DNA of 32,000 bases from Methanothermobacter marburgensis str. Marburg (GCF_000145295.1 NC_014408.1:510001-542000), one strand, 5' to 3'; shown: positions 1,116-8,115, counted from the first letter of the stretch. Program-made: numbers and translations. Notes: a model not told the origin generated them from the sequence alone.

Positions 1116-1264
1116 CTAACATCCCCTGTTGTTTAATGTTCTTTGATGAACATTTTCCACATATCATAATTTAAGGATTCCCATTTCTGGAAATCAGACA
1201 TATACGATTATATATTATGATGAGATTAGTATCTATTATACTGAGATCTGTAAATGGTGATGGT

Positions 1265-1813
1265 ATGAAGACGCTTGTGAGTAACCTGCGGGGAAGGTGC
1301 CTCTTTGATGTGGCTGTGAAGGCCCAGATAGATGGGCTGATATCGGTACAGGCAGAGGACTTCAATGATACATGTCTCGAGAAATTCATAAAGGGAGGTA
1401 TTATTCGGGTTGAGGGGCGAAACCCCATTGAGGCCGCCAGAAAGATAGCAGAGGTCATAAGGGGTGCTAAAAAGCATGGGGAGGTCTATGTTGCATTCGA
1501 TGGAAGTGACCTTGGTGGCCTACTCTCATTTTTAGCCCACCGTGAGGGGGTGGATGGTATCTACACGTGCTTTGGGGATTCTGCGGTGCGTCTTCCCCCA
1601 CTGAAACTTGACATATCTGATACCAGGCTCAGGATACTCGAGGCCCTTGAGGAGGAAAGCCTCAACGCGGTTTTAATTGCAAGGAAGGTCGGCATTTCAA
1701 GGGCTATGGTCTACAAGCATCTCTCTGGTCTGATGGAAATGGGGCTTGTGGAGCAGTCCCAGATGTTTGATAGATACTCCATTACAGATGCAGGTAAACT
1801 CGTTATAATATAA
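1265..1813 (+). CDS. Transcriptional regulator with a C-terminal ArsR/MarR-like winged HTH and an uncharacterised N-terminal domain
   Basis: Same frame as ORF track 1217..1813. The wHTH segment is LRILEALEEESLNAVLIARKVGISRAMVYKHLSGLMEMGLVEQ. I place the start at ATG 1265 (GGTGATGG SD 5 nt upstream) because a TATA-like ATTATATATT at 1207-1216 abuts the ATG at 1217. Confidence 0.75.
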   Translation: MKTLVSNLRGRCLFDVAVKAQIDGLISVQAEDFNDTCLEKFIKGGIIRVEGRNPIEAARKIAEVIRGAKKHGEVYVAFDGSDLGGLLSFLAHREGVDGIYTCFGDSAVRLPPLKLDISDTRLRILEALEEESLNAVLIARKVGISRAMVYKHLSGLMEMGLVEQSQMFDRYSITDAGKLVII

Positions 1814-1917
1814 TGAAGTTTAAGGTACGGGTTTACAAAAAAGGAGTTGGTTTGCGAATCAACTTACAAAAAAAAGGAGGTTTGATTTGAAGTTTGCGGT
1901 TATTACCAGAAAAATGT

Positions 1918-2151
1918 TTATTCCATTGGGTATCCAACCCTGAGCCTGTAGGATGCCTTTTCACTTATAAGCACAGTACCCGGCACAAAGAAGTCATCGA
2001 ATTCAGCAACCTTCTGCTTCATACAGGGCTTCAACTCATCCTTGCTGGCATAGGAAGCACATTCATCACTCTCCAGTATACCCTTCCTGACAAGTTCAAT
2101 GTACCTCATCTTCAGAGTTTCATCATCAAGAACGCTCATCATAATCACCAA
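1918..2151 (-). CDS. Hypothetical small protein (73-77 aa), no family recognised
   Basis: Its ORF reads more plausibly than the overlapping + ORF 1894..2259, which is low-complexity and hydrophobic/aromatic. A likely start is the internal MSVLDD. It lies in an A+T-rich stretch. Confidence 0.45.
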   Translation of the reverse strand: MVIMMSVLDDETLKMRYIELVRKGILESDECASYASKDELKPCMKQKVAEFDDFFVPGTVLISEKASYRLRVGYPME

Positions 2152-2299
2152 TATCTACTATATTCCAGCAATATATATATTTTTTGCAGTGCAATCTCTA
2201 TGGGGTATAAGTATTTATACTACATCGGACAATACTATATACAATGTTCAGAAAAATAAATTTCTGGCATCATGATAAAAAAGAGTTAAGGGGCCTGAA

Positions 2300-2680
2300 A
2301 TGATCAAAAGACCTTTAAATTACAGTAAAAACGAGGAGAAATATTCCATAATGTTAAAAACGGTTGTTGAACACCTCAGAGATCAGGGATACGATTTAAA
2401 GGTGAATAACGGTAAAAAGAAACTCAGACCACGTATGCTGAAAGGGTTCCTGCCTGATGTCCATGCCCTTAATGGCTCCGATGAAATTGTAGTTGAGATA
2501 AGCACCGATAATAGTGATATAAGAAAATGGAGAAGATTTGCATACACCGATGGCATCAGGTTCTGGATAGTTGCACCCTACCCAATCGCAGATTCTGTGA
2601 AAACCTGTGTTGAGACATTTTCAATACCTGCAGAGGTTTACGCATGTAACGGTACCATGGAACTCAAGCGTGTACTGTAA
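2300..2680 (+). CDS. Hypothetical protein, possibly a PD-(D/E)xK-like nuclease fold (weak)
   Basis: 126-aa ORF preceded by AAGGGGC SD-like sequence. The segment FLPDVHALNGSDEIVVEIST resembles a PD...(D/E)x(K) core but lacks the Lys. Codon usage is A/T-rich relative to its neighbours. A T6 run follows the stop. Confidence 0.6.
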   Translation: MIKRPLNYSKNEEKYSIMLKTVVEHLRDQGYDLKVNNGKKKLRPRMLKGFLPDVHALNGSDEIVVEISTDNSDIRKWRRFAYTDGIRFWIVAPYPIADSVKTCVETFSIPAEVYACNGTMELKRVL

Positions 2681-2825: not shown

Positions 2826-3392
2826 ATGAGGTCTATTTTTATAGCCGCGCTCCTGATTCTTGTGGCATCACAGATTCCGGGGGCATCGGCCTGGTCTGTA
2901 AAGAATCACCATGATATTGCAGAGAGGGTCTATCATGCAATGCCCTCTGATGTTCAAACCCGCCTGAGCCTTGATGAGATGAAGAATGGGGCAGACGACC
3001 CTGACACGGTTTTCTTTGATTTTGAATATCATGTATACCCATATAACCTTGAAAAGGCCAGGTTCTGGTTAGATCAGGGAAAAATCAGCTATGATTCAGG
3101 TAACTACAGTTATGCCAGCTACTGCTATGGTGTTGCAAGCCACTATATCTCTGATGGAATCTGCGGTCCACACACATCCTCTGGATCCAGCGGGTACCTC
3201 CACACCGTCTATGAGATACGTGCAATGATGCTTGAACCTGTAATGGTTCCTGTCCCTGATGACCCTGAAATGGAGGCAATGAAACTCTGGGGTTCATGGG
3301 TTTCTGAGGGTGACGACTCATGCATATCTGGGGCACTTGACCTGGCATGCAGTGTATCCTGTAGGGAGATCATGAACTCAATAGGGTCCTGA
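2826..3392 (+). CDS. Secreted zinc-dependent phospholipase C / S1-P1 nuclease-fold protein
   Basis: N-terminal signal peptide MRSIFIAALLILVASQIPGASA, followed by W-S-x-x-x-H-H. A mature N-terminal Trp is a zinc ligand in PLC and P1 nuclease. GADDPD and GVASHYISDGICGPH resemble the Zn_dep_PLPC motifs. Confidence 0.7.
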   Translation: MRSIFIAALLILVASQIPGASAWSVKNHHDIAERVYHAMPSDVQTRLSLDEMKNGADDPDTVFFDFEYHVYPYNLEKARFWLDQGKISYDSGNYSYASYCYGVASHYISDGICGPHTSSGSSGYLHTVYEIRAMMLEPVMVPVPDDPEMEAMKLWGSWVSEGDDSCISGALDLACSVSCREIMNSIGS

Positions 3393-3450: not shown

Positions 3451-3927
3451 TTAGCCAAATGTTGAGGCTATCCAGTCACCTGTGTAGTGTGTTATCACTA
3501 TAATCAGGATTGCCACCATGAGATGCTCACCAAGCACCCTCCAGAGGGGCGCATTCTGTGACCTTGCAATATGTACACTCAGGATACCCAGAAGTAGAAG
3601 GCCCCAGATGACTGACACTGCGATCGCAACTGTCAGGTCCAGTAAAAGAACAGGTAAGAGGAATGTGATGGCAAAGACGAATTTGCTCATGAAGGTTGCA
3701 ATGGTGGACTCCCACACCTCAACTTCGCTGTGCCGGTTTTCGGACTCCTCGGCGATGTGTATGCCCATGGCATCAGAGAAGGCGTCGGCTATTGCTATTG
3801 TGAGCACACCTCCAATCACCGCAAGCCTTGAATGGGTACCTGAATGGAGTCCCACCATAAGGCCAAGGGTGGTTATTATGGCCGATGTAAGACCGAAGCT
3901 GAAGCCGGTCTTTAATGAGTGTCTCAT
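3451..3927 (-). CDS. Small integral membrane protein, VIT1/CCC1-like (DUF125) family suspected
   Basis: 158 aa with 4-5 hydrophobic helices and an acidic loop (HIAEESENRHSEVEVWE). It starts 13 nt after the radical SAM gene on the same strand. The family assignment comes from motif memory only. Confidence 0.7.
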   Translation of the reverse strand: MRHSLKTGFSFGLTSAIITTLGLMVGLHSGTHSRLAVIGGVLTIAIADAFSDAMGIHIAEESENRHSEVEVWESTIATFMSKFVFAITFLLPVLLLDLTVAIAVSVIWGLLLLGILSVHIARSQNAPLWRVLGEHLMVAILIIVITHYTGDWIASTFG

Positions 3928-3940
3928 AGTTATAACTTTA

Positions 3941-5068
3941 TTATTTCATCATTATATCCAGCACGCCAGGTTTTGATTTCTTCTTCTGCCCTCCAAGGAT
4001 TCCAGATTCAAGAAACTCCCTGTTGGCCCTCCTGTTGATTTCAGTGAAGATCATCCTGTAGGCCTGGCACTGATGGTCGACGCCATCTATCCTCCGCACT
4101 CCATTTTCGACTGTTATGGCATTGTATGGGCAGCCACCGAGGCAGTATCTGTAGAATTCACAGTCACCGCATTCATCATCAACCATTTTTCTCCAGTCAT
4201 AGAGGGACCGGAGGGCATCACTTTCATTGAGATCCTCCATGCTGGGCCTGTCAGATACGTTACCCATTATGTAATCCTTCATGCCAACGAAGCGATAACA
4301 GGGGTATATGTCCCCGTAGGGGTCAACTGCAAAGGTATTCCCCACACAGTCCGCGTGTGTGCACACAACACCCCTGCGGAGGAACGCGCTCTTTGCAAAG
4401 TGGTCAATGTTCTGTATTTCGATTTCACCAAAGTGCTCAAGGTACCTCTCAAGGAGGTAGAGGAGGAGATCCCCGTACTCCTCTGCGGTTATGGCCCACT
4501 CCTCAGGGTCGGGGCTCTTGAGGGATGGGAGAGCCGGGTGGAGCTTCATGTTCATCTTATTCTCAAGGAAAAACTCGAATATATCCTCCTTTCTCCTTAT
4601 GGAGTAGGAGGTGAATGTGCTTATGAAGCTCACCTTCAGACCGTGCCTCCTGGCTATCTCATAGCCCTTCATGGTTTTATCGAAGTAACCATCACCCCTC
4701 TGGTGATCATTTATTTCTCGGGGACCATCAAGGCTTGAGCCGATGGGTATGCTGTACTCTGCAAAGAGTTCTGCCAGTTCGTCGGTCATGAGCCATAGAT
4801 TTGTCTGGATGGCAAATGCGGGCTTTAGAAAATCGAGTTCAGTGGATATCAGCTGCAGGGTTTTCCTGTAAAATTCGTAACCTGCAAGGAGAGGTTCTCC
4901 CCCATGGAAGGTGAAGGTGGCGGGTTCTTTTCTGAAATCCCTCAGCCATGAAACCATTTCCCTCACTGTTTCAGTGTCCATCACCTTTGAGTCCCGGTCA
5001 ACACCCCAGCAGTAGCTGCAGTCGGAGGGACAGTTCATTGAGGGGATGATCATAACATGGAATGCCAT
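3941..5068 (-). CDS. Radical SAM enzyme with C-terminal SPASM domain (anSME-like / peptide-modifying type)
   Basis: N-terminal CPSDCSYC (CX3CX2C) and HGGEPLL. The C-terminal part has CVGNTFAVDPYGDIYPC (CX10GX4C), CGDCEFYRYCLGGC (CX2CX5CX3C) and a later Cys, which is the full 7-Cys SPASM signature. GGTGATGG SD overlaps the stop of the upstream sORF. Confidence 0.9.
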   Translation of the reverse strand: MAFHVMIIPSMNCPSDCSYCWGVDRDSKVMDTETVREMVSWLRDFRKEPATFTFHGGEPLLAGYEFYRKTLQLISTELDFLKPAFAIQTNLWLMTDELAELFAEYSIPIGSSLDGPREINDHQRGDGYFDKTMKGYEIARRHGLKVSFISTFTSYSIRRKEDIFEFFLENKMNMKLHPALPSLKSPDPEEWAITAEEYGDLLLYLLERYLEHFGEIEIQNIDHFAKSAFLRRGVVCTHADCVGNTFAVDPYGDIYPCYRFVGMKDYIMGNVSDRPSMEDLNESDALRSLYDWRKMVDDECGDCEFYRYCLGGCPYNAITVENGVRRIDGVDHQCQAYRMIFTEINRRANREFLESGILGGQKKKSKPGVLDIMMK

Positions 5069-5076
5069 TCCATCAC

Positions 5077-5229
5077 CTAATCAGCGGTTTCAAATACATG
5101 GCCACACTTTTCACAGACGATTTCCTTCAGGGACGTCCTTGACTTGTGCTCATCCATGAATTTTCTCTTAACAACCTTGTCCCTGCAGCCGCACACAGGG
5201 CACTCCTTCAGAAACTCTTCCATCTTCAT
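5077..5229 (-). CDS. Unannotated 50-aa zinc-ribbon-like sORF (sORF-B)
   Basis: Hand translation: MKMEEFLKECPVCGCRDKVVKRKFMDEHKSRTSLKEIVCEKCGHVFETAD. It has CxxC...CxxC knuckles. GAGGT SD lies 6 nt upstream, the gene starts 2 nt after sORF-A, and its stop is 8 nt before the rSAM start. It resembles the 74-aa protein at 9871..10095 (CPxCGxxDK ... CxKCGxVFE). It is below the ORF-track length cutoff. Confidence 0.6.
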   Translation of the reverse strand: MKMEEFLKECPVCGCRDKVVKRKFMDEHKSRTSLKEIVCEKCGHVFETAD

Positions 5230-5231
5230 GT

Positions 5232-5384
5232 TCAGACCTCTATTATCTCTTCCACCACATATTTACCGCCACAGGGACACTCCTCTATTCTATCTCCAAT
5301 GGGGTAGGGTGGTGTTTTACCTTCAACTTCAAGGGTTCTCTTAGCCCTGCAGAGGTCACAGTAAGCTTCGACTATCCACATCAT
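5232..5384 (-). CDS. Unannotated 50-aa Cys-knuckle sORF (sORF-A)
   Basis: Hand translation: MMWIVEAYCDLCRAKRTLEVEGKTPPYPIGDRIEECPCGGKYVVEEIIEV. It has CxxC...CxC. It is exactly the same length as sORF-B and is the first gene of the operon. A TATA-like box about 26 nt upstream is compatible with a leaderless transcript. Confidence 0.5.
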   Translation of the reverse strand: MMWIVEAYCDLCRAKRTLEVEGKTPPYPIGDRIEECPCGGKYVVEEIIEV

Positions 5385-5392
5385 GTAACCTA

Positions 5393-5414
5393 GATATATA
5401 TGGTCTGATATATA
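5393..5414. promoter_or_regulatory. Back-to-back TATA-like boxes in the 51-bp divergent intergenic region
   Basis: GATATATA occurs twice (5393-5400 and 5407-5414), between the sORF-A start (5384, minus) and the SOUL gene start (TTG 5436, plus; GGGGG SD at 5423-5427). Confidence 0.45.
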
Positions 5415-5435
5415 AGTTGTAAGGGGGTTGTTTTT

Positions 5436-5990
5436 TTGACTGAGAGTCCAGATTATGAGGTTGAACTGGAAGACGGTGACTTTGAGATAAGGTGCTATCC
5501 CGGGTACATACTGGCACAGGTGGATGTTGAGGGGAACTTCAGGGATGCGATGCTTAGGGGATTTTCCATCCTTGCAGACTACATATTCGGGAATAACAGG
5601 CGCAGGGAGGAGATTCCAATGACATCCCCAGTAACTGGAGTCAGGCTGGGGGAGAAGATACCAATGGCAGCACCGGTTACAGAGGAGAAACTTGATGATG
5701 GGGGAGTCTACAGGATATCTTTTACCATGCCATCATCCTACACCCTTGAAACACTTCCAGAGCCCAATGACACACGTATAAGGTTCAGGGCTGAGAAGAA
5801 TCAGAGGTTTGCGGTCTATAAATTTTCAGGAAGGGTAAATGAGAGAATGGTGGAGGAAAGAACTGGTGAATTCAGGGAGTGGCTCAGAGAAAATTCCATA
5901 AAACCCAGGTCCAGCTTCATAGTTGCCCAGTATAACCATCCTGCAGTCCCCGGTTTCCTGAGAAGGAATGAGATCCTTGTGAAGATATAA
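5436..5990 (+). CDS. SOUL/HBP-family (heme/tetrapyrrole-binding protein-like) protein
   Basis: 184 aa with a TTG start. YEVELEDGDFEIRCYPGYILAQVDVEGNFRDAMLRGFSILADYIFGNN... and MTSPV / MAAPV match the SOUL heme-binding family pattern. Confidence 0.85.
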   Translation: MTESPDYEVELEDGDFEIRCYPGYILAQVDVEGNFRDAMLRGFSILADYIFGNNRRREEIPMTSPVTGVRLGEKIPMAAPVTEEKLDDGGVYRISFTMPSSYTLETLPEPNDTRIRFRAEKNQRFAVYKFSGRVNERMVEERTGEFREWLRENSIKPRSSFIVAQYNHPAVPGFLRRNEILVKI

Positions 5991-6006
5991 GTGTGGGGGG
6001 ATTCTG

Positions 6007-6750
6007 ATGAATGAGATTGAAAGGAACCGTTACTTCCTGAAGGACAGTATAAGGAAGAGGATAGATTTTTCAAAAACACCCCAGAGCATGGGTGTGGCTG
6101 CACCACCATTCGAGAAGCCATGGCCAGAGGATGCTGAAATGATTGACCTCCCGGTACTTGACTGGGCTGAAATGGTGGACGTGAATATTGTAAGCTGCAT
6201 AAGAAACCGTAAGAGCCGCAGGAGTTACACTGACAGGCCCCTGAAACTTGAGGAACTCTCTTTTCTTCTCTGGGCCACCCAGGGGATAAGGATGGTTGCA
6301 GGTTACAGTGCCTTCCGCACAGTCCCATCAGCCGGCTGCAGGCACACCTTTGAAACTTACCTTGCGGTATTCAATGTGGAGGGCCTCGAGGAGGGCCTCT
6401 ACAGGTACATACCATCGGTGCACCGGTTGCTGGTTGAGTACCTTGACGATAACCTCTCCCAGAGGATAGTGGAGGCATCCTTCCACCAGCGCTTCACAGG
6501 AGAATCCGCTGTGACATTCATCTGGACCACGATACCATACAGGATGGAGTGGAGGTATGGTCTTGCAGCCCACAGGGTGATCCTCATTGACGCAGGACAT
6601 GTCTGCCAGAACCTCTACCTTGCCTGTGAGGCCATAGGTGCGGGTACATGTGCGGTCGCAGCCTATGACCAGGAGTACCTTGATGAGGTGCTGGGGGTTG
6701 ATGGTGTGGATGAATTCACCATTTACATGGCGCCGGTTGGAAAGGTTTAA
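6007..6750 (+). CDS. SagB-type dehydrogenase domain protein (nitroreductase superfamily)
   Basis: RKSRRSYTDRPLKLEELSFLLWATQGI, FRTVPSAGCRHTFETYLAVFNVEGLEEGLYRYIPSVHRL and a C-terminal nitroreductase core. It starts 16 nt after the SOUL gene. Confidence 0.85.
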   Translation: MNEIERNRYFLKDSIRKRIDFSKTPQSMGVAAPPFEKPWPEDAEMIDLPVLDWAEMVDVNIVSCIRNRKSRRSYTDRPLKLEELSFLLWATQGIRMVAGYSAFRTVPSAGCRHTFETYLAVFNVEGLEEGLYRYIPSVHRLLVEYLDDNLSQRIVEASFHQRFTGESAVTFIWTTIPYRMEWRYGLAAHRVILIDAGHVCQNLYLACEAIGAGTCAVAAYDQEYLDEVLGVDGVDEFTIYMAPVGKV

Positions 6751-6803
6751 GAAAAAAATTGAAGTGTGGTGTTACCTTCACCTTATGAGGAGCCACTAAA
6801 AAA

Positions 6804-7820
6804 TTAGATTTTCACGGATGATGGTAGCTGCATTTTTTTACTGGATGTGTGGGTCCTTGTAATCCCTGAGTACATTCTGAGGAGGTCCCTGTAACCTATT
6901 ATTCCATTTTTAAACCGTATATAATTCGGTGCCCTCAGATACCTTCTCATGTAATTGTTGACATCGGCTGCAAGTTTCCGGTATTCGGTCCTTGAGAGGT
7001 AACCATGGAATGTGCTCTTAACACCAGGATTTGAGGGTCCCCTTACCTTCAGGTATCTTATGGGTCCGTTCATGTAGTCTGTTACCATGAGAAGGAATGT
7101 CTCTGGTCTGTAACCATTGTAGGTCCTTTTGAGTTTTCTGCCGTTTTTCAGGTCAGTGTGTATTCCATTAGCCACACGGGCCATAACTGCAGGGTCAATG
7201 CTGTGGTAGGCTATGAGTTTGCTGTTGTAGAATCTCCCCTTCTTCTGGGTAATCCCGGGGGTTTCATTCAGGATTCTCATGATCTCCGATGCTATGAACC
7301 GGCACTTCTCTTCCCAGGATGCGCCGGGACAGTCAATGTTCGGCTGTATGATTCTTACACCTGCGGAGGTGAGGAACCTGTAGGGGTACCTGATACCTGC
7401 AAAGTACCTGGTGGAGAAGTTATCGTCCCATGCCCTCCTCAGCATGTAGGTATTTTTGAGGTTGAGTTTCCCGGTGTTTACAAATATCACACCCTTGGAT
7501 GTGGTTGCTGCAAGTTTAGCGACTTCTCTCATTGCCCCAGGGCAGGAGGCTGCAAGGTAAATCGCTACTCCCCCCTGAGGAGTGCAGCTTATTGCACGGC
7601 CACCCTCACCAGGTTTCGGGGCTTTGGGGTCCACTGTAACATTGTGTTCACTTTCGTTTTCAATACAGCTCTTGATGAGGTTGAGGTTTTCAATGTCAGA
7701 GGAGCTGTTGCCTGTTATGCAGTCTGAGGTGAGGAATATATTAACTGCCGCAGCATCACTGATATTCACTGAAAAAAGGACAAGGGCTGTCATGAACAGT
7801 ATAATTCCCTTTAATTGCAA
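6804..7820 (-). CDS. Secreted protein with a C-terminal pseudomurein-binding-repeat-like segment
   Basis: TTG start with AGGTGAT SD. The signal peptide is MQLKGIILFMTALVLFSVNISDAAA. The C-terminal LSRTEYRKLAADVNNYMRRYLRAPNYIRFKNGIIGYRDLL resembles the PMBR motif (..Y..a..V..f......PnYv....). A T6 run on the minus strand (6798-6803) follows the stop. Confidence 0.75.
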   Translation of the reverse strand: MQLKGIILFMTALVLFSVNISDAAAVNIFLTSDCITGNSSSDIENLNLIKSCIENESEHNVTVDPKAPKPGEGGRAISCTPQGGVAIYLAASCPGAMREVAKLAATTSKGVIFVNTGKLNLKNTYMLRRAWDDNFSTRYFAGIRYPYRFLTSAGVRIIQPNIDCPGASWEEKCRFIASEIMRILNETPGITQKKGRFYNSKLIAYHSIDPAVMARVANGIHTDLKNGRKLKRTYNGYRPETFLLMVTDYMNGPIRYLKVRGPSNPGVKSTFHGYLSRTEYRKLAADVNNYMRRYLRAPNYIRFKNGIIGYRDLLRMYSGITRTHTSSKKMQLPSSVKI

Positions 7821-7884: not shown

Positions 7885-8115
7885 ATGAGGTTCTACATAT
7901 TCCCCGAATTTTTTCTTATAATCCTTTATGGTGATAATTTGGTTCCTGAGATAAAACAGAAGTGTTTGATCTGTGGCGAGCAGTGGATTGATGGAAAAGA
8001 TACCTGTCCATACTGCGGAGGCAAAAATAAGACTGCAAGTATAGATTCCGAGAATGATCTTGCTCTGCTGAGATCACTTAACAGCATCCTGAAAAAGGAG
8101 AAGGTTTCAGAGTAA
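7885..8115 (+). CDS. Putative small zinc-ribbon protein (start uncertain)
   Basis: CLICGEQWIDGKDTCPYCGG forms CxxC-x10-CxxC knuckles. The ATG at 7885 abuts a TATA box (7875-7882) that more plausibly serves the divergent gene. An internal TTG at 7939 after GGTGAT is an alternative start. Confidence 0.35.
   Translation: MRFYIFPEFFLIILYGDNLVPEIKQKCLICGEQWIDGKDTCPYCGGKNKTASIDSENDLALLRSLNSILKKEKVSE

What the first reader, a model, noticed from the sequence alone, without database searches (positions are those of the whole stretch)
3451..5384. Tight operon: two unannotated 50-aa Cys-knuckle sORFs, a radical SAM/SPASM enzyme and a small membrane protein (candidate peptide-maturation system)
Seen: four minus-strand genes are separated by only 2, 8 and 13 nt. 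They are sORF-A (5384->5232, MMWIVEAYCDLCRAKRTLEVEGKTPPYPIGDRIEECPCGGKYVVEEIIEV), sORF-B (5229->5077, MKMEEFLKECPVCGCRDKVVKRKFMDEHKSRTSLKEIVCEKCGHVFETAD), a 375-aa radical SAM protein with a complete 7-Cys SPASM signature, and a 158-aa polytopic membrane protein. Both sORFs are exactly 50 codons and fall below the 60-aa cutoff of the supplied ORF track. SD-like sequences precede sORF-B (GAGGT) and the rSAM gene (GGTGATGG, overlapping the sORF-B stop). Established: SPASM radical SAM enzymes (anSME, sacti/ranthipeptide synthases, PqqE, MftC) usually modify Cys- or peptide substrates encoded next to them. Inference: the sORFs are either Cys-rich substrates or Zn-ribbon partner proteins of the rSAM enzyme, and the membrane protein is an exporter or metal transporter. 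I know of no characterised product of such a cluster in Methanobacteriales.
Basis: partly seen in the sequence, partly recalled or inferred. Interest (0 to 1): 0.75.

Follow-up and report, generated by a model that had tools for sequence, protein, structure and literature searches.

The report
Methanogen radical-SAM and Cys-peptide gene pair
The region holds a gene pair that databases already recognise but nobody has tested biochemically: a 50-residue four-cysteine zinc-ribbon-like protein next to a radical SAM enzyme resembling the anaerobic sulfatase maturase. The other two genes of the apparent operon are neighbours found only in this lineage.

Summary
Four minus-strand genes lie 2, 8 and 13 nt apart: sORF-A, sORF-B, a 375-aa radical SAM/SPASM enzyme and a 158-aa VIT-family membrane protein. 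Both sORFs are real genes under purifying selection.

The window is Methanothermobacter marburgensis Marburg, and GenBank already annotates all four genes. The sORFs are missing only from the 60-aa ORF track.

NCBIfam places sORF-B in TIGR04165 ("methano_modCys" Cys-rich peptide) and the enzyme in TIGR04083 ("peptide-modifying radical SAM enzyme"). This pair was predicted in silico. I found no experimental paper on it.

Comparative genomics reduces the system to those two genes. sORF-B lies within 3 kb of the enzyme in 17 of 20 Methanobacteriales loci; the other three are cut off on one side. sORF-A and VIT are absent from a relative that keeps sORF-B and the enzyme. sORF-A occurs elsewhere next to SOUL without the enzyme.

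Enzyme orthologues (50-60% identity) in Methanoperedens, ANME-2 and Methanocorpusculum have no such peptide nearby, so the peptide-substrate assignment stays unproven.

The enzyme is frameshifted in M. thermautotrophicus and carries a premature stop in M. wolfeii isolates.

A speculative link to the MCR didehydroaspartate modification is testable.

Verdict: known kind, function open, moderate interest.

The parts
5077..5229 (-). sORF-B: a 50-aa TIGR04165 'methano_modCys' Cys-rich small protein with a predicted zinc-ribbon-like fold. It is the candidate substrate or partner of the rSAM enzyme and the conserved core partner.
   Evidence: NCBIfam TIGR04165 scores 88.2 bits against a cutoff of 60. 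The exact sequence is ADL58157.1, which RefSeq names 'TIGR04165 family Cys-rich peptide'. Invariant residues in 45 homologues are C10 P11 C13 G14 D17 K18 C39 C42; C15 varies. The AF2 model (pLDDT 66) shows a helix plus three strands, and its best PDB folds are Zn ribbons such as Rpb9, TFIIS and TFIIB. dN/dS is 0.13.
3941..5068 (-). A 375-aa radical SAM/SPASM enzyme of family TIGR04083. It is anSME-like and has no N-terminal RRE extension.
   Evidence: TIGR04083 scores 577.5 bits against a cutoff of 300. The anSME model TIGR03942 scores only 178.7 bits against a cutoff of 349. Pfam finds Radical_SAM and SPASM domains. The best PDB sequence match is anSME 4K36-39 (E 7e-28, residues 10-342), followed by CteB 5WGG. 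Of its 11 Cys, three form CX3CX2C and eight are auxiliary-cluster ligands. dN/dS is 0.05.
5232..5384 (-). sORF-A: a 50-aa stand-alone zinc-ribbon micro-protein (CxxC...CxC). It is the first gene of the transcription unit here but not a conserved partner of the rSAM enzyme.
   Evidence: It hits no Pfam or NCBIfam family. Only two homologue clusters exist among 5.8 billion proteins. The AF2 model has pLDDT 96.4 with four strands, and its best folds are Zn-ribbon inserts of aRF1 and MCM. It is absent from L052/L053 and L002. In L048-L051 it lies next to SOUL without the rSAM gene. M. wolfeii L066/L068 carry a 28-nt deletion in it. It is not demonstrably homologous to sORF-B (hhalign probability 32%).
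3451..3927 (-). A 158-aa VIT1/CCC1-family membrane protein, a putative Fe/Mn transporter. It is a neighbour specific to this lineage.
   Evidence: Pfam VIT1 scores 35.2 bits against a cutoff of 28.1. A homologue follows the rSAM gene only in Methanothermobacter loci (L001, L057-L064). It is absent in L052 and broken into three frames in all four M. wolfeii loci.
5385..5435 (.). A 51-bp divergent intergenic region between sORF-A and the SOUL gene. It carries conserved TATA-like boxes and is the probable bidirectional archaeal promoter that drives the sORF-A to VIT transcript.
   Evidence: The sequence was read. CTTATATATC and ATATATCTAG are conserved in four Methanothermobacter lineages. Assigning them as a promoter is inference; no transcription-start data were available.
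5436..5990 (+). A SOUL heme-binding-family gene transcribed divergently from sORF-A. It is the only neighbour of sORF-A that is conserved outside Methanothermobacter.
   Evidence: Pfam SOUL scores 153 bits. The arrangement SOUL(-)|sORF-A(+) is kept in L048-L051.

Best explanation
The functional unit is two genes, not four.

Shown: sORF-B is a TIGR04165 small protein with four invariant Cys and a predicted zinc-ribbon-like fold. The enzyme is a TIGR04083 radical SAM/SPASM protein. The two form a module kept together throughout Methanobacteriaceae.

Shown by sequence: the enzyme is built like the anaerobic sulfatase-maturating enzyme. It has a CX3CX2C [4Fe-4S] site for SAM (C13/C17/C20) and eight further Cys that fully ligate two auxiliary clusters. 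It has no leader-peptide recognition (RRE) domain.

Inferred from the chemistry of anSME, CteB and PapB:
- The enzyme cleaves SAM reductively.
- The 5'-deoxyadenosyl radical abstracts a hydrogen from a residue of a bound polypeptide.
- The auxiliary clusters carry the electron away or hold the reacting thiolate.
- The product is an oxidised or cross-linked residue.

Inferred, and the weakest step: the most likely substrate in Methanothermobacter is sORF-B itself. The invariant C13-x3-D17-K18 stretch is the best guess for the modified site.

sORF-A, a separate zinc-ribbon micro-protein tied to the SOUL promoter region, and the VIT transporter are co-transcribed passengers in this lineage. The module is dispensable in culture, because the enzyme gene is broken in M. 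thermautotrophicus and truncated in M. wolfeii isolates.
For: Family assignment:
- Both proteins score above the curated cutoffs.
- RefSeq gives the identical proteins these names.

Linkage:
- sORF-B lies 8 nt upstream of the enzyme here and 15 nt upstream in L052.
- It lies about 30 nt downstream in L017, L019-L021 and L024, and 0.6-2.7 kb away in other Methanobacterium loci.
- In total it is within 3 kb in 17 of 20 Methanobacteriales loci. The three exceptions are cut 0.2-0.5 kb from the gene on one side.
- Linkage therefore survives rearrangement of order and strand.
- Many Methanobacterium loci carry a second TIGR04165 paralogue next to the enzyme. Multiple precursor genes are typical of peptide substrates.

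Enzyme architecture.

Exclusion of sORF-A and VIT.

Dispensability:
- L061 has a 1-nt deletion in a G run, and only fragments are called in Delta H.
- M. wolfeii has TAC to TAG at codon 337.
Against: - Enzyme orthologues at 50-60% identity in Methanoperedens, ANME-2 and Methanocorpusculum have no TIGR04165-like ORF within about 4 kb.
- A profile search found named TIGR04165 proteins only in Methanobacterium, Methanothermobacter and unclassified 'Euryarchaeota archaeon' records. The enzyme family is therefore broader than its proposed substrate.
- sORF-B is conserved over its whole length, like a folded Zn-ribbon protein. It shows no evident leader/core split.
- Divergent TIGR04165-like tandem genes occur with no rSAM gene within 5 kb (L054-L056).
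- sORF-B stays intact where the enzyme is broken.
- No biochemical data exist.
Confidence: 0.5

Rival explanations
1. sORF-B is not the substrate. It is a small metal-binding partner of the enzyme: a Zn-ribbon adaptor that presents another substrate, or a rubredoxin-like Fe(Cys)4 electron carrier that feeds or drains the clusters.
For: - Exactly four Cys are invariant, in two knuckles: CPxCG and CxxCG(Y/H)xF. This is the rubredoxin/Zn-ribbon pattern.
- sORF-B gives weak Pfam hits to Zn ribbons and to the rubrerythrin rubredoxin-like domain.
- The predicted fold matches Zn ribbons.
- The protein is conserved over its whole length.
- In two ANME-type loci (L014, L026) a 2x[4Fe-4S] ferredoxin sits directly upstream of the enzyme. 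That is the position sORF-B holds here.
- sORF-B stays intact when the enzyme is inactivated.
Against: - Two or three paralogues per locus are unusual for a redox partner.
- Orthologous enzymes in Methanocorpusculum have neither a ferredoxin nor a ribbon gene nearby.
- The sORF-B model confidence is modest (pLDDT 66).
Confidence: 0.2
2. The enzyme's real target is a conserved methanogen protein encoded elsewhere. The specific candidate is Asp450 of McrA, converted to didehydroaspartate by an anSME-like two-electron oxidation. The link to sORF-B in Methanobacteriaceae would then be secondary.
For: - The enzyme is 50-60% identical across three orders of methanogens and methanotrophs and has no conserved neighbour. 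That fits a shared housekeeping substrate.
- It is anSME-like and lacks an RRE domain. It therefore resembles an enzyme that acts on a protein rather than on a peptide with a leader.
- The enzyme that forms didehydroaspartate is unknown (PMC7581889; PMC8070964; two searches found no later identification).
- The modification is present in M. marburgensis, ANME-2c and ANME-2d, and absent in M. wolfeii (PMC9081873; PMC12413448).
- The enzyme gene is intact in M. marburgensis (window), Methanoperedens and an ANME-2 MAG.
- It carries a premature stop in M. wolfeii isolates.
- The pattern-limited scan returned no hit from Methanococcales or Methanopyrus, which lack the modification. This is only weakly informative.
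Against: - The correlation rests on about four organisms.
- Presence in Methanosarcina barkeri and M. acetivorans, which have the modification, could not be tested. None appeared in the scan, though the scan is insensitive.
- The truncated M. wolfeii protein keeps all 11 Cys and may still work.
- Some M. wolfeii MAGs have the intact gene.
- The gene is not near mcr genes.
- The hypothesis leaves the persistent linkage to sORF-B unexplained.
Confidence: 0.12
3. All four genes form one peptide-maturation system. Both sORFs are substrates or partners of the enzyme, and the membrane protein exports the product or supplies metal.
For: - The four genes are tightly spaced and co-oriented behind a single promoter region.
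- The four-gene order is kept in the M. thermautotrophicus/marburgensis-type genomes.
- In one M. wolfeii lineage sORF-A, the enzyme and VIT are all damaged together.
Against: - L052/L053 keep sORF-B and the enzyme but lack sORF-A and VIT.
- sORF-A occurs with SOUL and heliorhodopsin and without the enzyme.
- L002 has sORF-B and the enzyme but no sORF-A.
- VIT is already a pseudogene in M. wolfeii MAGs whose enzyme and sORF-A are intact.
- VIT belongs to an Fe/Mn transporter family, not a peptide exporter family.
- sORF-A and sORF-B are not detectably homologous.
Confidence: 0.05
4. The enzyme acts on a non-peptide substrate. Candidates are an AhbD/NirJ-type tetrapyrrole reaction (suggested by the adjacent SOUL 'heme-binding' gene) or a lipid reaction like that of GMGT synthase.
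For: - SPASM enzymes include AhbD, NirJ and Gms (PMC10452713, seen; PMC11186832).
- A SOUL-family gene lies next door.
- In Methanobacterium loci a ferredoxin, a geranylgeranyl-reductase-like gene and a UbiA-like gene lie nearby.
Against: - The 25 best NCBIfam hits are all anSME or peptide/protein maturases. No tetrapyrrole family is among them.
- Gms has an N-terminal six-helix domain and clusters with the B12 enzyme Gmm. Neither feature is present here.
- SOUL is absent from L052 and from the Methanobacterium loci.
Confidence: 0.04

Closest known systems
NCBIfam pair TIGR04083 (rSAM_pep_methan) and TIGR04165 (methano_modCys)
   Same: The window's enzyme and sORF-B are members of these families. 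Both score above the curated cutoffs, and the identical proteins carry these names in RefSeq.
   Different: Nothing differs in identity. Both models are 'hypothetical equivalogs': the peptide-modifying role is a computational prediction, and I found no experimental paper. This analysis adds that TIGR04083 extends to orders where no TIGR04165 gene is nearby.
Anaerobic sulfatase-maturating enzyme (anSME / AtsB; PDB 4K36-4K39)
   Same: It is the closest solved structure by sequence (E 7e-28 over residues 10-342). It has the same length, the same CX3CX2C motif and eight auxiliary-cluster Cys, and no RRE domain.
   Different: The window's enzyme scores below the TIGR03942 cutoff (179 bits against 349). 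In the alignment, a Tyr (YPC-Y-RF) occupies the position of the Asp after the YPC cluster ligand of anSME. From memory, that Asp is the proposed catalytic base D277. No sulfatase-type C/S-x-P-x-R motif is present in sORF-A or sORF-B (sequence).
Thioether-forming SPASM maturases (SCIFF maturase CteB, PDB 5WGG; ranthipeptide maturase PapB)
   Same: They are SPASM enzymes that act on small Cys-rich peptides encoded next to them. CteB is the second-best PDB match. PapB is among the best NCBIfam hits (108 bits). From memory, the invariant C13-x3-D17 of sORF-B resembles the CX3D motif cross-linked by PapB.
   Different: All scores are far below those families' cutoffs. CteB has an N-terminal RRE domain, and the window's enzyme has no room for one because its radical SAM motif starts at residue 13. 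sORF-B looks like a folded Zn ribbon rather than a leader-plus-core peptide.
Darobactin/dynobactin maturases (DarE, DynA)
   Same: DynA is the third-best NCBIfam hit (171 bits), aligned over the full length.
   Different: The score is below the cutoff of 450. Those enzymes link aromatic residues in short core peptides of Gram-negative bacteria. No comparable core motif is conserved in sORF-B.
Archaeal small zinc-finger micro-proteins (C(P)xCG type)
   Same: sORF-A and sORF-B are each 50 aa with two Cys knuckles and predicted zinc-ribbon folds.
   Different: sORF-B stays linked to a radical SAM enzyme, which is not a general property of such proteins. No metal content has been measured.
VIT1/CCC1 iron/manganese transporters
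   Same: The 158-aa membrane protein passes the Pfam VIT1 threshold.
   Different: It is short, and the best stretch matches only profile positions 120-213 of 214. There is no evidence that it belongs to the rSAM system.

Membership tests
TIGR04083 peptide-modifying radical SAM enzyme (NCBIfam) | Whole-protein score at or above the curated cutoff of 300 bits | tested here: met
   577.5 bits, with profile positions 1-376 covered.
TIGR04083 peptide-modifying radical SAM enzyme (NCBIfam) | Radical SAM CX3CX2C motif plus a complete SPASM Cys set | tested here: met
   C13/C17/C20 plus C236, 241, 257, 300, 303, 309, 313 and 334. All eight align with anSME cluster ligands.
TIGR04083 peptide-modifying radical SAM enzyme (NCBIfam) | Actually modifies a peptide | not testable with these tools
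   The model is a 'hypoth_equivalog'. No experimental paper was found.
TIGR04165 Cys-rich peptide (methano_modCys) | Whole-protein score at or above the curated cutoff of 60 bits | tested here: met
   sORF-B scores 88.2 bits over profile positions 1-50 of 50. sORF-A has no hit.
TIGR04165 Cys-rich peptide (methano_modCys) | Encoded near a TIGR04083 enzyme | tested here: met
   The gap is 8 nt in the window. sORF-B is within 3 kb in 17 of 20 Methanobacteriales loci, and the other three are truncated. Divergent members in L054-L056 lack a nearby enzyme.
Anaerobic sulfatase maturase (TIGR03942 equivalog) | Score at or above the cutoff of 349 bits | tested here: not met
   178.7 bits.
Anaerobic sulfatase maturase (TIGR03942 equivalog) | Catalytic Asp following the YPC cluster ligand (D277 of anSMEcpe; residue role recalled from memory) | tested here: not met
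   The alignment to 4K37 places Tyr at that position.
RiPP precursor/maturase system of the leader-dependent type (SCIFF, sactipeptide) | RRE (PqqD-like) leader-recognition domain on the maturase or as a separate gene | tested here: not met
   The radical SAM motif starts at residue 13, so no N-terminal domain fits. Pfam finds only Radical_SAM and SPASM. No PqqD-like gene lies in the operon.
RiPP precursor/maturase system of the leader-dependent type (SCIFF, sactipeptide) | Precursor with separate leader and core regions | tested here: inconclusive
   sORF-B is conserved over its whole length, with invariant residues in both knuckles. That is compatible with a folded protein or with a fully conserved precursor.
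AhbD / NirJ tetrapyrrole radical SAM enzymes | Match to the family models | tested here: not met
   None is among the 25 best NCBIfam hits for the window protein. All of those are anSME or peptide maturases.
GMGT synthase (Gms) | N-terminal six-helix domain before the radical SAM domain, and clustering with the B12 enzyme Gmm | tested here: not met
   The features are described in PMC11186832 and PMC11214058. The window protein has no N-terminal domain and no B12 radical SAM neighbour. No direct sequence comparison with a Gms protein was possible.
VIT1/CCC1 family (PF01988) | Pfam gathering score of 28.1 bits | tested here: met
   35.2 bits in two stretches. Transport activity was not tested.
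Zinc-ribbon fold (sORF-A, sORF-B) | Two Cys knuckles on a small beta-sheet that bind Zn | tested here: inconclusive
   The predicted folds match Zn ribbons, with TM-scores (query-normalised) of 0.55-0.70 for sORF-A and 0.43-0.51 for sORF-B. Foldseek E-values are only 0.1-5. Metal binding cannot be tested here.

The most novel reading that the evidence does not exclude
TIGR04083 is the missing enzyme that converts Asp450 of the methyl-coenzyme M reductase alpha subunit to didehydroaspartate. It would do this by an anSME-like radical two-electron oxidation. The TIGR04165 zinc-ribbon protein would be a Methanobacteriaceae-specific accessory.

The gene is intact in M. marburgensis, ANME-2 and Methanoperedens, which carry the modification. 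It is truncated in M. wolfeii isolates, which lack it. The M. thermautotrophicus genome CP064337.1 (L061) carries a natural frameshift mutant that could be tested directly.
Probability: 0.1. Interest if true: 0.85.

Novelty: already known. Interest (0 to 1): 0.35.

Why it matters
Methanogens carry many radical SAM enzymes of unknown function. TIGR04083 is restricted to methanogens and anaerobic methanotrophs and is well conserved, yet it has never been studied.

Knowing that the conserved unit is only the enzyme plus the TIGR04165 protein narrows the experiment to two genes in a genetically tractable, mass-culturable organism.

Natural loss-of-function alleles offer ready-made controls. M. thermautotrophicus has a frameshift, and M. 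wolfeii isolates have a nonsense codon.

If sORF-B is modified, this would be the first characterised radical-SAM-modified small protein from Methanobacteriales. If the target is instead MCR, it would fill one of the remaining gaps in MCR maturation, which matters for heterologous production of the enzyme.

As it stands, the finding is an existing database prediction, not a discovery.

Tried and rejected
- **sORF-A as a diverged paralogue of sORF-B.** hhalign gives only 32% probability over 16 columns around one knuckle, and MAFFT aligns different knuckles. Rejected as unproven.
- **Single-sequence homologue searches for the sORFs.** They returned only near-identical clusters. An alignment query was needed to reach the family.
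- **GMGT synthase idea**, prompted by lipid genes near the enzyme in Methanobacterium. Rejected on domain architecture and gene context.
- **AhbD/heme idea**, prompted by the SOUL neighbour. Rejected on family scores and on the absence of SOUL in other loci.
- **Exhaustive phmmer of the enzyme against 1.84 billion representatives.**
  - At 50% clustering the orthologues collapse into one representative. The search mostly returned 35%-identical double radical SAM fusions from metagenomes.
  - Cluster look-ups gave no organism names, so the taxonomic range, Methanosarcina in particular, could not be settled.
- **Contexts of two distant TIGR04083-scoring proteins** (L069-L073). They showed no Cys-rich peptide. 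One has an acidic 54-aa ORF upstream. Uninformative.
- **Literature searches** by family accession, family name, locus tag and 'peptide-modifying radical SAM' found nothing on this system. The paper I believe first described these families (Haft and Basu 2011, from memory) is not held.
- **The sigma-70 promoter/terminator scanner** was not used, because it does not cover archaeal promoters.


Full report
**Observation.** They are sORF-A (5384..5232, 50 aa), sORF-B (5229..5077, 50 aa), a radical SAM protein (5068..3941, 375 aa) and a membrane protein (3927..3451, 158 aa). The gaps between them are 2, 8 and 13 nt. GAGGT precedes sORF-B. AGGTGATGG overlaps the sORF-B stop codon just before the rSAM start.

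The enzyme has 11 Cys. C13/C17/C20 form the CX3CX2C motif. C236, 241, 257, 300, 303, 309, 313 and 334 each align with an auxiliary-cluster ligand of anSME. The SPASM claim therefore holds.

Both sORFs are genuine genes.
- Each exact sequence recurs in many Methanothermobacter assemblies.
- dN/dS against the 97%-identical locus L001 is 0.29 for sORF-A and 0.13 for sORF-B.
- In the distant comparisons synonymous sites are saturated while dN is 0.20-0.25.

**Identity of the window and annotation status.** Exact look-ups identify the window as Methanothermobacter marburgensis str. Marburg.
- Enzyme: ADL58156.1.
- sORF-B: ADL58157.1.
- sORF-A: ADL58158.1, locus tag MTBMA_c05630, called at 49 aa.
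- Membrane protein: ADL58155.1.

RefSeq names the enzyme 'TIGR04083 family peptide-modifying radical SAM enzyme' and sORF-B 'TIGR04165 family Cys-rich peptide'.

**Family assignment.**
- NCBIfam scores the enzyme at 577.5 bits on TIGR04083 (cutoff 300) and sORF-B at 88.2 bits on TIGR04165 'methano_modCys' (cutoff 60).
- Both models are 'hypothetical equivalogs', meaning they rest on an in-silico prediction.
- The next-best enzyme hits are all below their cutoffs: anSME (179 bits against 349), DynA, PapB, several cyclophane-forming maturases and the SCIFF maturase.
- No tetrapyrrole family is among the best 25 hits.
- By sequence, the closest solved structures are anSME 4K36-39 (E 7e-28, residues 10-342) and then CteB.
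- The residue after the YPC cluster ligand is Tyr here, where anSME has Asp. From memory, that Asp is anSME's proposed catalytic base. The enzyme is anSME-like but is not an anSME.
- The radical SAM motif starts at residue 13, so there is no room for an RRE domain.
- sORF-A matches no family.
- The membrane protein is VIT1/CCC1 family (35 bits against a cutoff of 28).

**Which genes travel together.** A genome scan returned 47 loci encoding relatives of the enzyme.
- One Methanothermobacter locus at 97% identity.
- Methanobacterium and other Methanobacteriaceae at 57-67%.
- Methanoperedens, ANME-2 and other Methanosarcinales at 56-60%.
- Methanocorpusculum and other Methanomicrobiales at 50-53%.

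I used tblastn and a scan for small CxxC...CxxC ORFs. They find a sORF-B homologue within 3 kb in 17 of 20 Methanobacteriales loci. The three exceptions (L003, L006, L028) are cut 0.2-0.5 kb from the gene on one side. The position of sORF-B is not fixed:
- directly upstream in L001 and, 15 nt away, in L052;
- 1.4 kb upstream in L002, with an ArsR-type gene and a membrane gene in between;
- about 30 nt downstream in L017, L019-L021 and L024;
- 0.6-2.7 kb downstream in the remaining loci.

Linkage that survives such rearrangement argues for a functional tie. Many Methanobacterium loci also carry a second paralogue (57-58 aa, MKTEEL...CPKCGC...CTECGYVF) convergent with the enzyme gene.

sORF-A and VIT behave differently.
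- Homologues of both accompany the enzyme only in Methanothermobacter loci.
- sORF-A has only two homologue clusters among 5.8 billion proteins.
- The 72%-identical homologue sits in the arrangement SOUL(-) | sORF-A(+) | heliorhodopsin(+), with no rSAM gene directly downstream (L048-L051).
- L002 has SOUL | heliorhodopsin | sORF-B ... rSAM and lacks sORF-A.
- L052/L053 carry a sORF-B that is 68% identical. Their order is HisG | sORF-B | rSAM | AHJR-like | 73-aa ORF | ArsR. The downstream synteny matches window positions 2680..1217, but sORF-A, SOUL, VIT and the phospholipase-C-like gene are all absent.

The conserved core is therefore sORF-B plus the enzyme.

**The small proteins.**
- In 45 TIGR04165 sequences the invariant residues are C10, P11, C13, G14, D17, K18, C39 and C42. 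C15 varies (C/G/S/D).
- AlphaFold gives sORF-B a helix plus three strands at pLDDT 66. Foldseek's best PDB matches are Zn ribbons such as Rpb9, TFIIS, TFIIB and MqsA-N, with weak E-values of 0.1-5 as expected for 45 residues.
- sORF-A folds with pLDDT 96 into four strands. It matches the Zn-ribbon inserts of aRF1 and MCM, with a query-normalised TM-score of 0.55-0.70.
- A profile-profile comparison of the two families gives 32% probability over 16 columns. Paralogy is not supported.

**Breadth of the two families.**
- The TIGR04165 profile search found 107 clusters. Every named one is Methanobacterium, Methanothermobacter or an unclassified 'Euryarchaeota archaeon'.
- None of the 27 non-Methanobacteriales enzyme loci has such an ORF within about 4 kb.
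- In Methanoperedens the enzyme gene is followed by a conserved 53-aa MazE/AbrB-like ORF.
- In two ANME-type loci a 2x[4Fe-4S] ferredoxin precedes it.
- In Methanocorpusculum it has only unrelated neighbours: a cyclophilin, a thioesterase-like gene and a glyoxalase-like gene, judged from their sequences.
- An exhaustive phmmer search adds many proteins of 750-830 aa from metagenomes. Their N-terminal half scores 420-455 bits on TIGR04083 and is fused to a second radical SAM/SPASM module. Their organisms are unknown.

The enzyme family is therefore wider than its proposed peptide. This is the main reason that the claim 'sORF-B is the substrate' remains a hypothesis.

**Gene decay.**
- In M. thermautotrophicus CP064337.1 (L061) a 1-nt deletion in a G run at nt 695 splits the enzyme gene into ORFs of 262 and 134 aa.
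- The 1997 Delta H record likewise has only a 108-aa fragment, annotated 'arylsulfatase regulatory protein'.
- In M. wolfeii isolates and in loci L066/L068, codon 337 is TAG instead of TAC. This removes the last 39 residues but no Cys.
- The same L066/L068 loci carry a 28-nt deletion in sORF-A.
- VIT is broken into three frames in all four M. wolfeii loci examined.
- sORF-B is intact everywhere.

The module is therefore dispensable in culture and in digesters.

**Transcription (inference).** Only 51 bp separate the sORF-A and SOUL start codons. Two TATA-like elements in this interval (CTTATATATC and ATATATCTAG) are conserved across Methanothermobacter lineages. There is no room for a promoter in the 2- and 8-nt gaps. 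The four genes are therefore probably one transcript here. That explains the tight operon appearance without requiring a shared function.

**Mechanism.**
- Shown: the enzyme has the cluster-binding residues of an anSME-type SPASM enzyme, and it keeps genetic linkage to a four-Cys small protein in Methanobacteriaceae.
- Inferred from anSME, CteB and PapB chemistry: reductive SAM cleavage, hydrogen abstraction from a bound polypeptide, and electron removal or thiolate handling by the auxiliary clusters.
- Weakest step: that the polypeptide is sORF-B, possibly at the invariant C13-x3-D17-K18 stretch. From memory, this resembles the CX3D motif of ranthipeptides.

I put about 0.5 on the two-gene enzyme/substrate reading and 0.2 on sORF-B being a metal-binding partner. 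I put about 0.12 on a substrate encoded elsewhere and little on the four-gene model or a non-peptide substrate.

**A speculative lead.** The didehydroaspartate modification of MCR has no known biosynthetic enzyme.
- It is present in M. marburgensis MCR I and II, M. barkeri, M. acetivorans, ANME-2c and ANME-2d.
- It is absent in M. wolfeii, M. kandleri, M. formicicus, M. thermolithotrophicus, M. shengliensis, ANME-1 and Ca. Ethanoperedens.

TIGR04083 is intact in M. marburgensis, Methanoperedens and an ANME-2 MAG. It is truncated in M. wolfeii isolates. An anSME-like two-electron oxidation is chemically apt for this conversion. The sample is tiny, however, and I could not test Methanosarcina. 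I give the idea about 0.1, but it is cheap to test.

**Verdict.** The system is an NCBIfam-defined pair that has not been characterised, so its kind is already known. sORF-A and VIT are passengers. Interest is moderate (0.35), mainly because the biochemistry is open and natural mutants exist.

Noticed in passing
L061:4162-5288 (M. thermautotrophicus CP064337.1), orthologue of window 3941-5068: The rSAM gene is a frameshift pseudogene. One G is lost from a G run at nt 695, giving ORFs of 262 and 134 aa. The 1997 Delta H record also has only a 108-aa fragment, annotated 'arylsulfatase regulatory protein'. This is a natural knockout in a model strain.
   Followed up: yes
L066 and L068 (M. wolfeii-type contigs), against L065 and L067: One M. 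wolfeii lineage carries three lesions in the operon: rSAM TAC to TAG at codon 337, a 28-nt deletion in sORF-A, and a multiply frameshifted VIT gene. Other M. wolfeii MAGs have only the VIT lesions. sORF-B is intact in all four loci.
   Followed up: yes
window 5436-6750 (+): A SOUL heme-binding-family gene is followed 16 nt later by a SagB-type nitroreductase (TIGR03605, 120 bits against a cutoff of 78). The pair is transcribed divergently from sORF-A. SagB-type dehydrogenases are known from azole-forming peptide pathways, but no cyclodehydratase is nearby. The pair is absent from L052.
   Followed up: partly
L048:1418-2239, L049, L050, L002:1402-2226: In mesophilic or uncultured relatives a heliorhodopsin gene sits between SOUL/sORF-A and sORF-B. 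A light-sensing protein in Methanobacteriaceae, lying in the same syntenic block, is unexpected.
   Followed up: no
L004-L012, L047 (for example L005:5334-5507 minus strand, 5868-6035, 6588-6758): Methanobacterium loci carry two TIGR04165 paralogues flanking the rSAM 3' end. They also carry a 55-aa 2x[4Fe-4S] ferredoxin followed by a geranylgeranyl-reductase-like gene, and some have a UbiA-like gene.
   Followed up: partly
L013:5174-5335, L022:5174-5335, L023:5163-5324, L015:5920-6081: In Methanoperedens a conserved 53-aa MazE/AbrB-like ORF follows the rSAM gene. Its C-terminal tail reads ...EPFTCSGEPGARIKPKK. It could be an alternative small-protein partner or substrate in that lineage.
   Followed up: partly
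P0169, P0170, P0175 and similar proteins (metagenome proteins): Dozens of 750-830-aa proteins have an N-terminal half that scores 420-455 bits on TIGR04083, fused to a second radical SAM/SPASM module (StsB/NirJ-like). Their organisms and contexts are unknown.
   Followed up: partly
L054-L056:4693-5243: Two tandem, divergent TIGR04165-like genes (74 and 80 aa, with an insertion between the knuckles) occur with no rSAM gene within 5 kb. The genome encodes PG_binding_1-domain proteins nearby.
   Followed up: no
window 7885-8115 (+); homologue at L001:953-1129: A third small CxxC...CxxC ORF (76 aa, or 58 aa from an internal start) is conserved in Methanothermobacter and has no Pfam hit. It is called as a 58-aa gene in most related loci.
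   Followed up: no
window 1217-2680 and 2826-3392: The conserved downstream block comprises an ArsR/TrmB-type regulator with an N-terminal extension (1217-1813), a 77-aa conserved ORF (1918-2151, minus strand) and an AHJR-like nuclease-fold protein (2300-2680). There is also a zinc-dependent phospholipase-C-like protein (2826-3392) that is absent from L052.
   Followed up: no
window 6804-7820 (-): A 338-aa protein with a pseudomurein-binding repeat (PMBR, 48 bits) and an N-terminal hydrophobic stretch lies in the block between HisG and the SagB-type gene in Methanothermobacter genomes.
   Followed up: no
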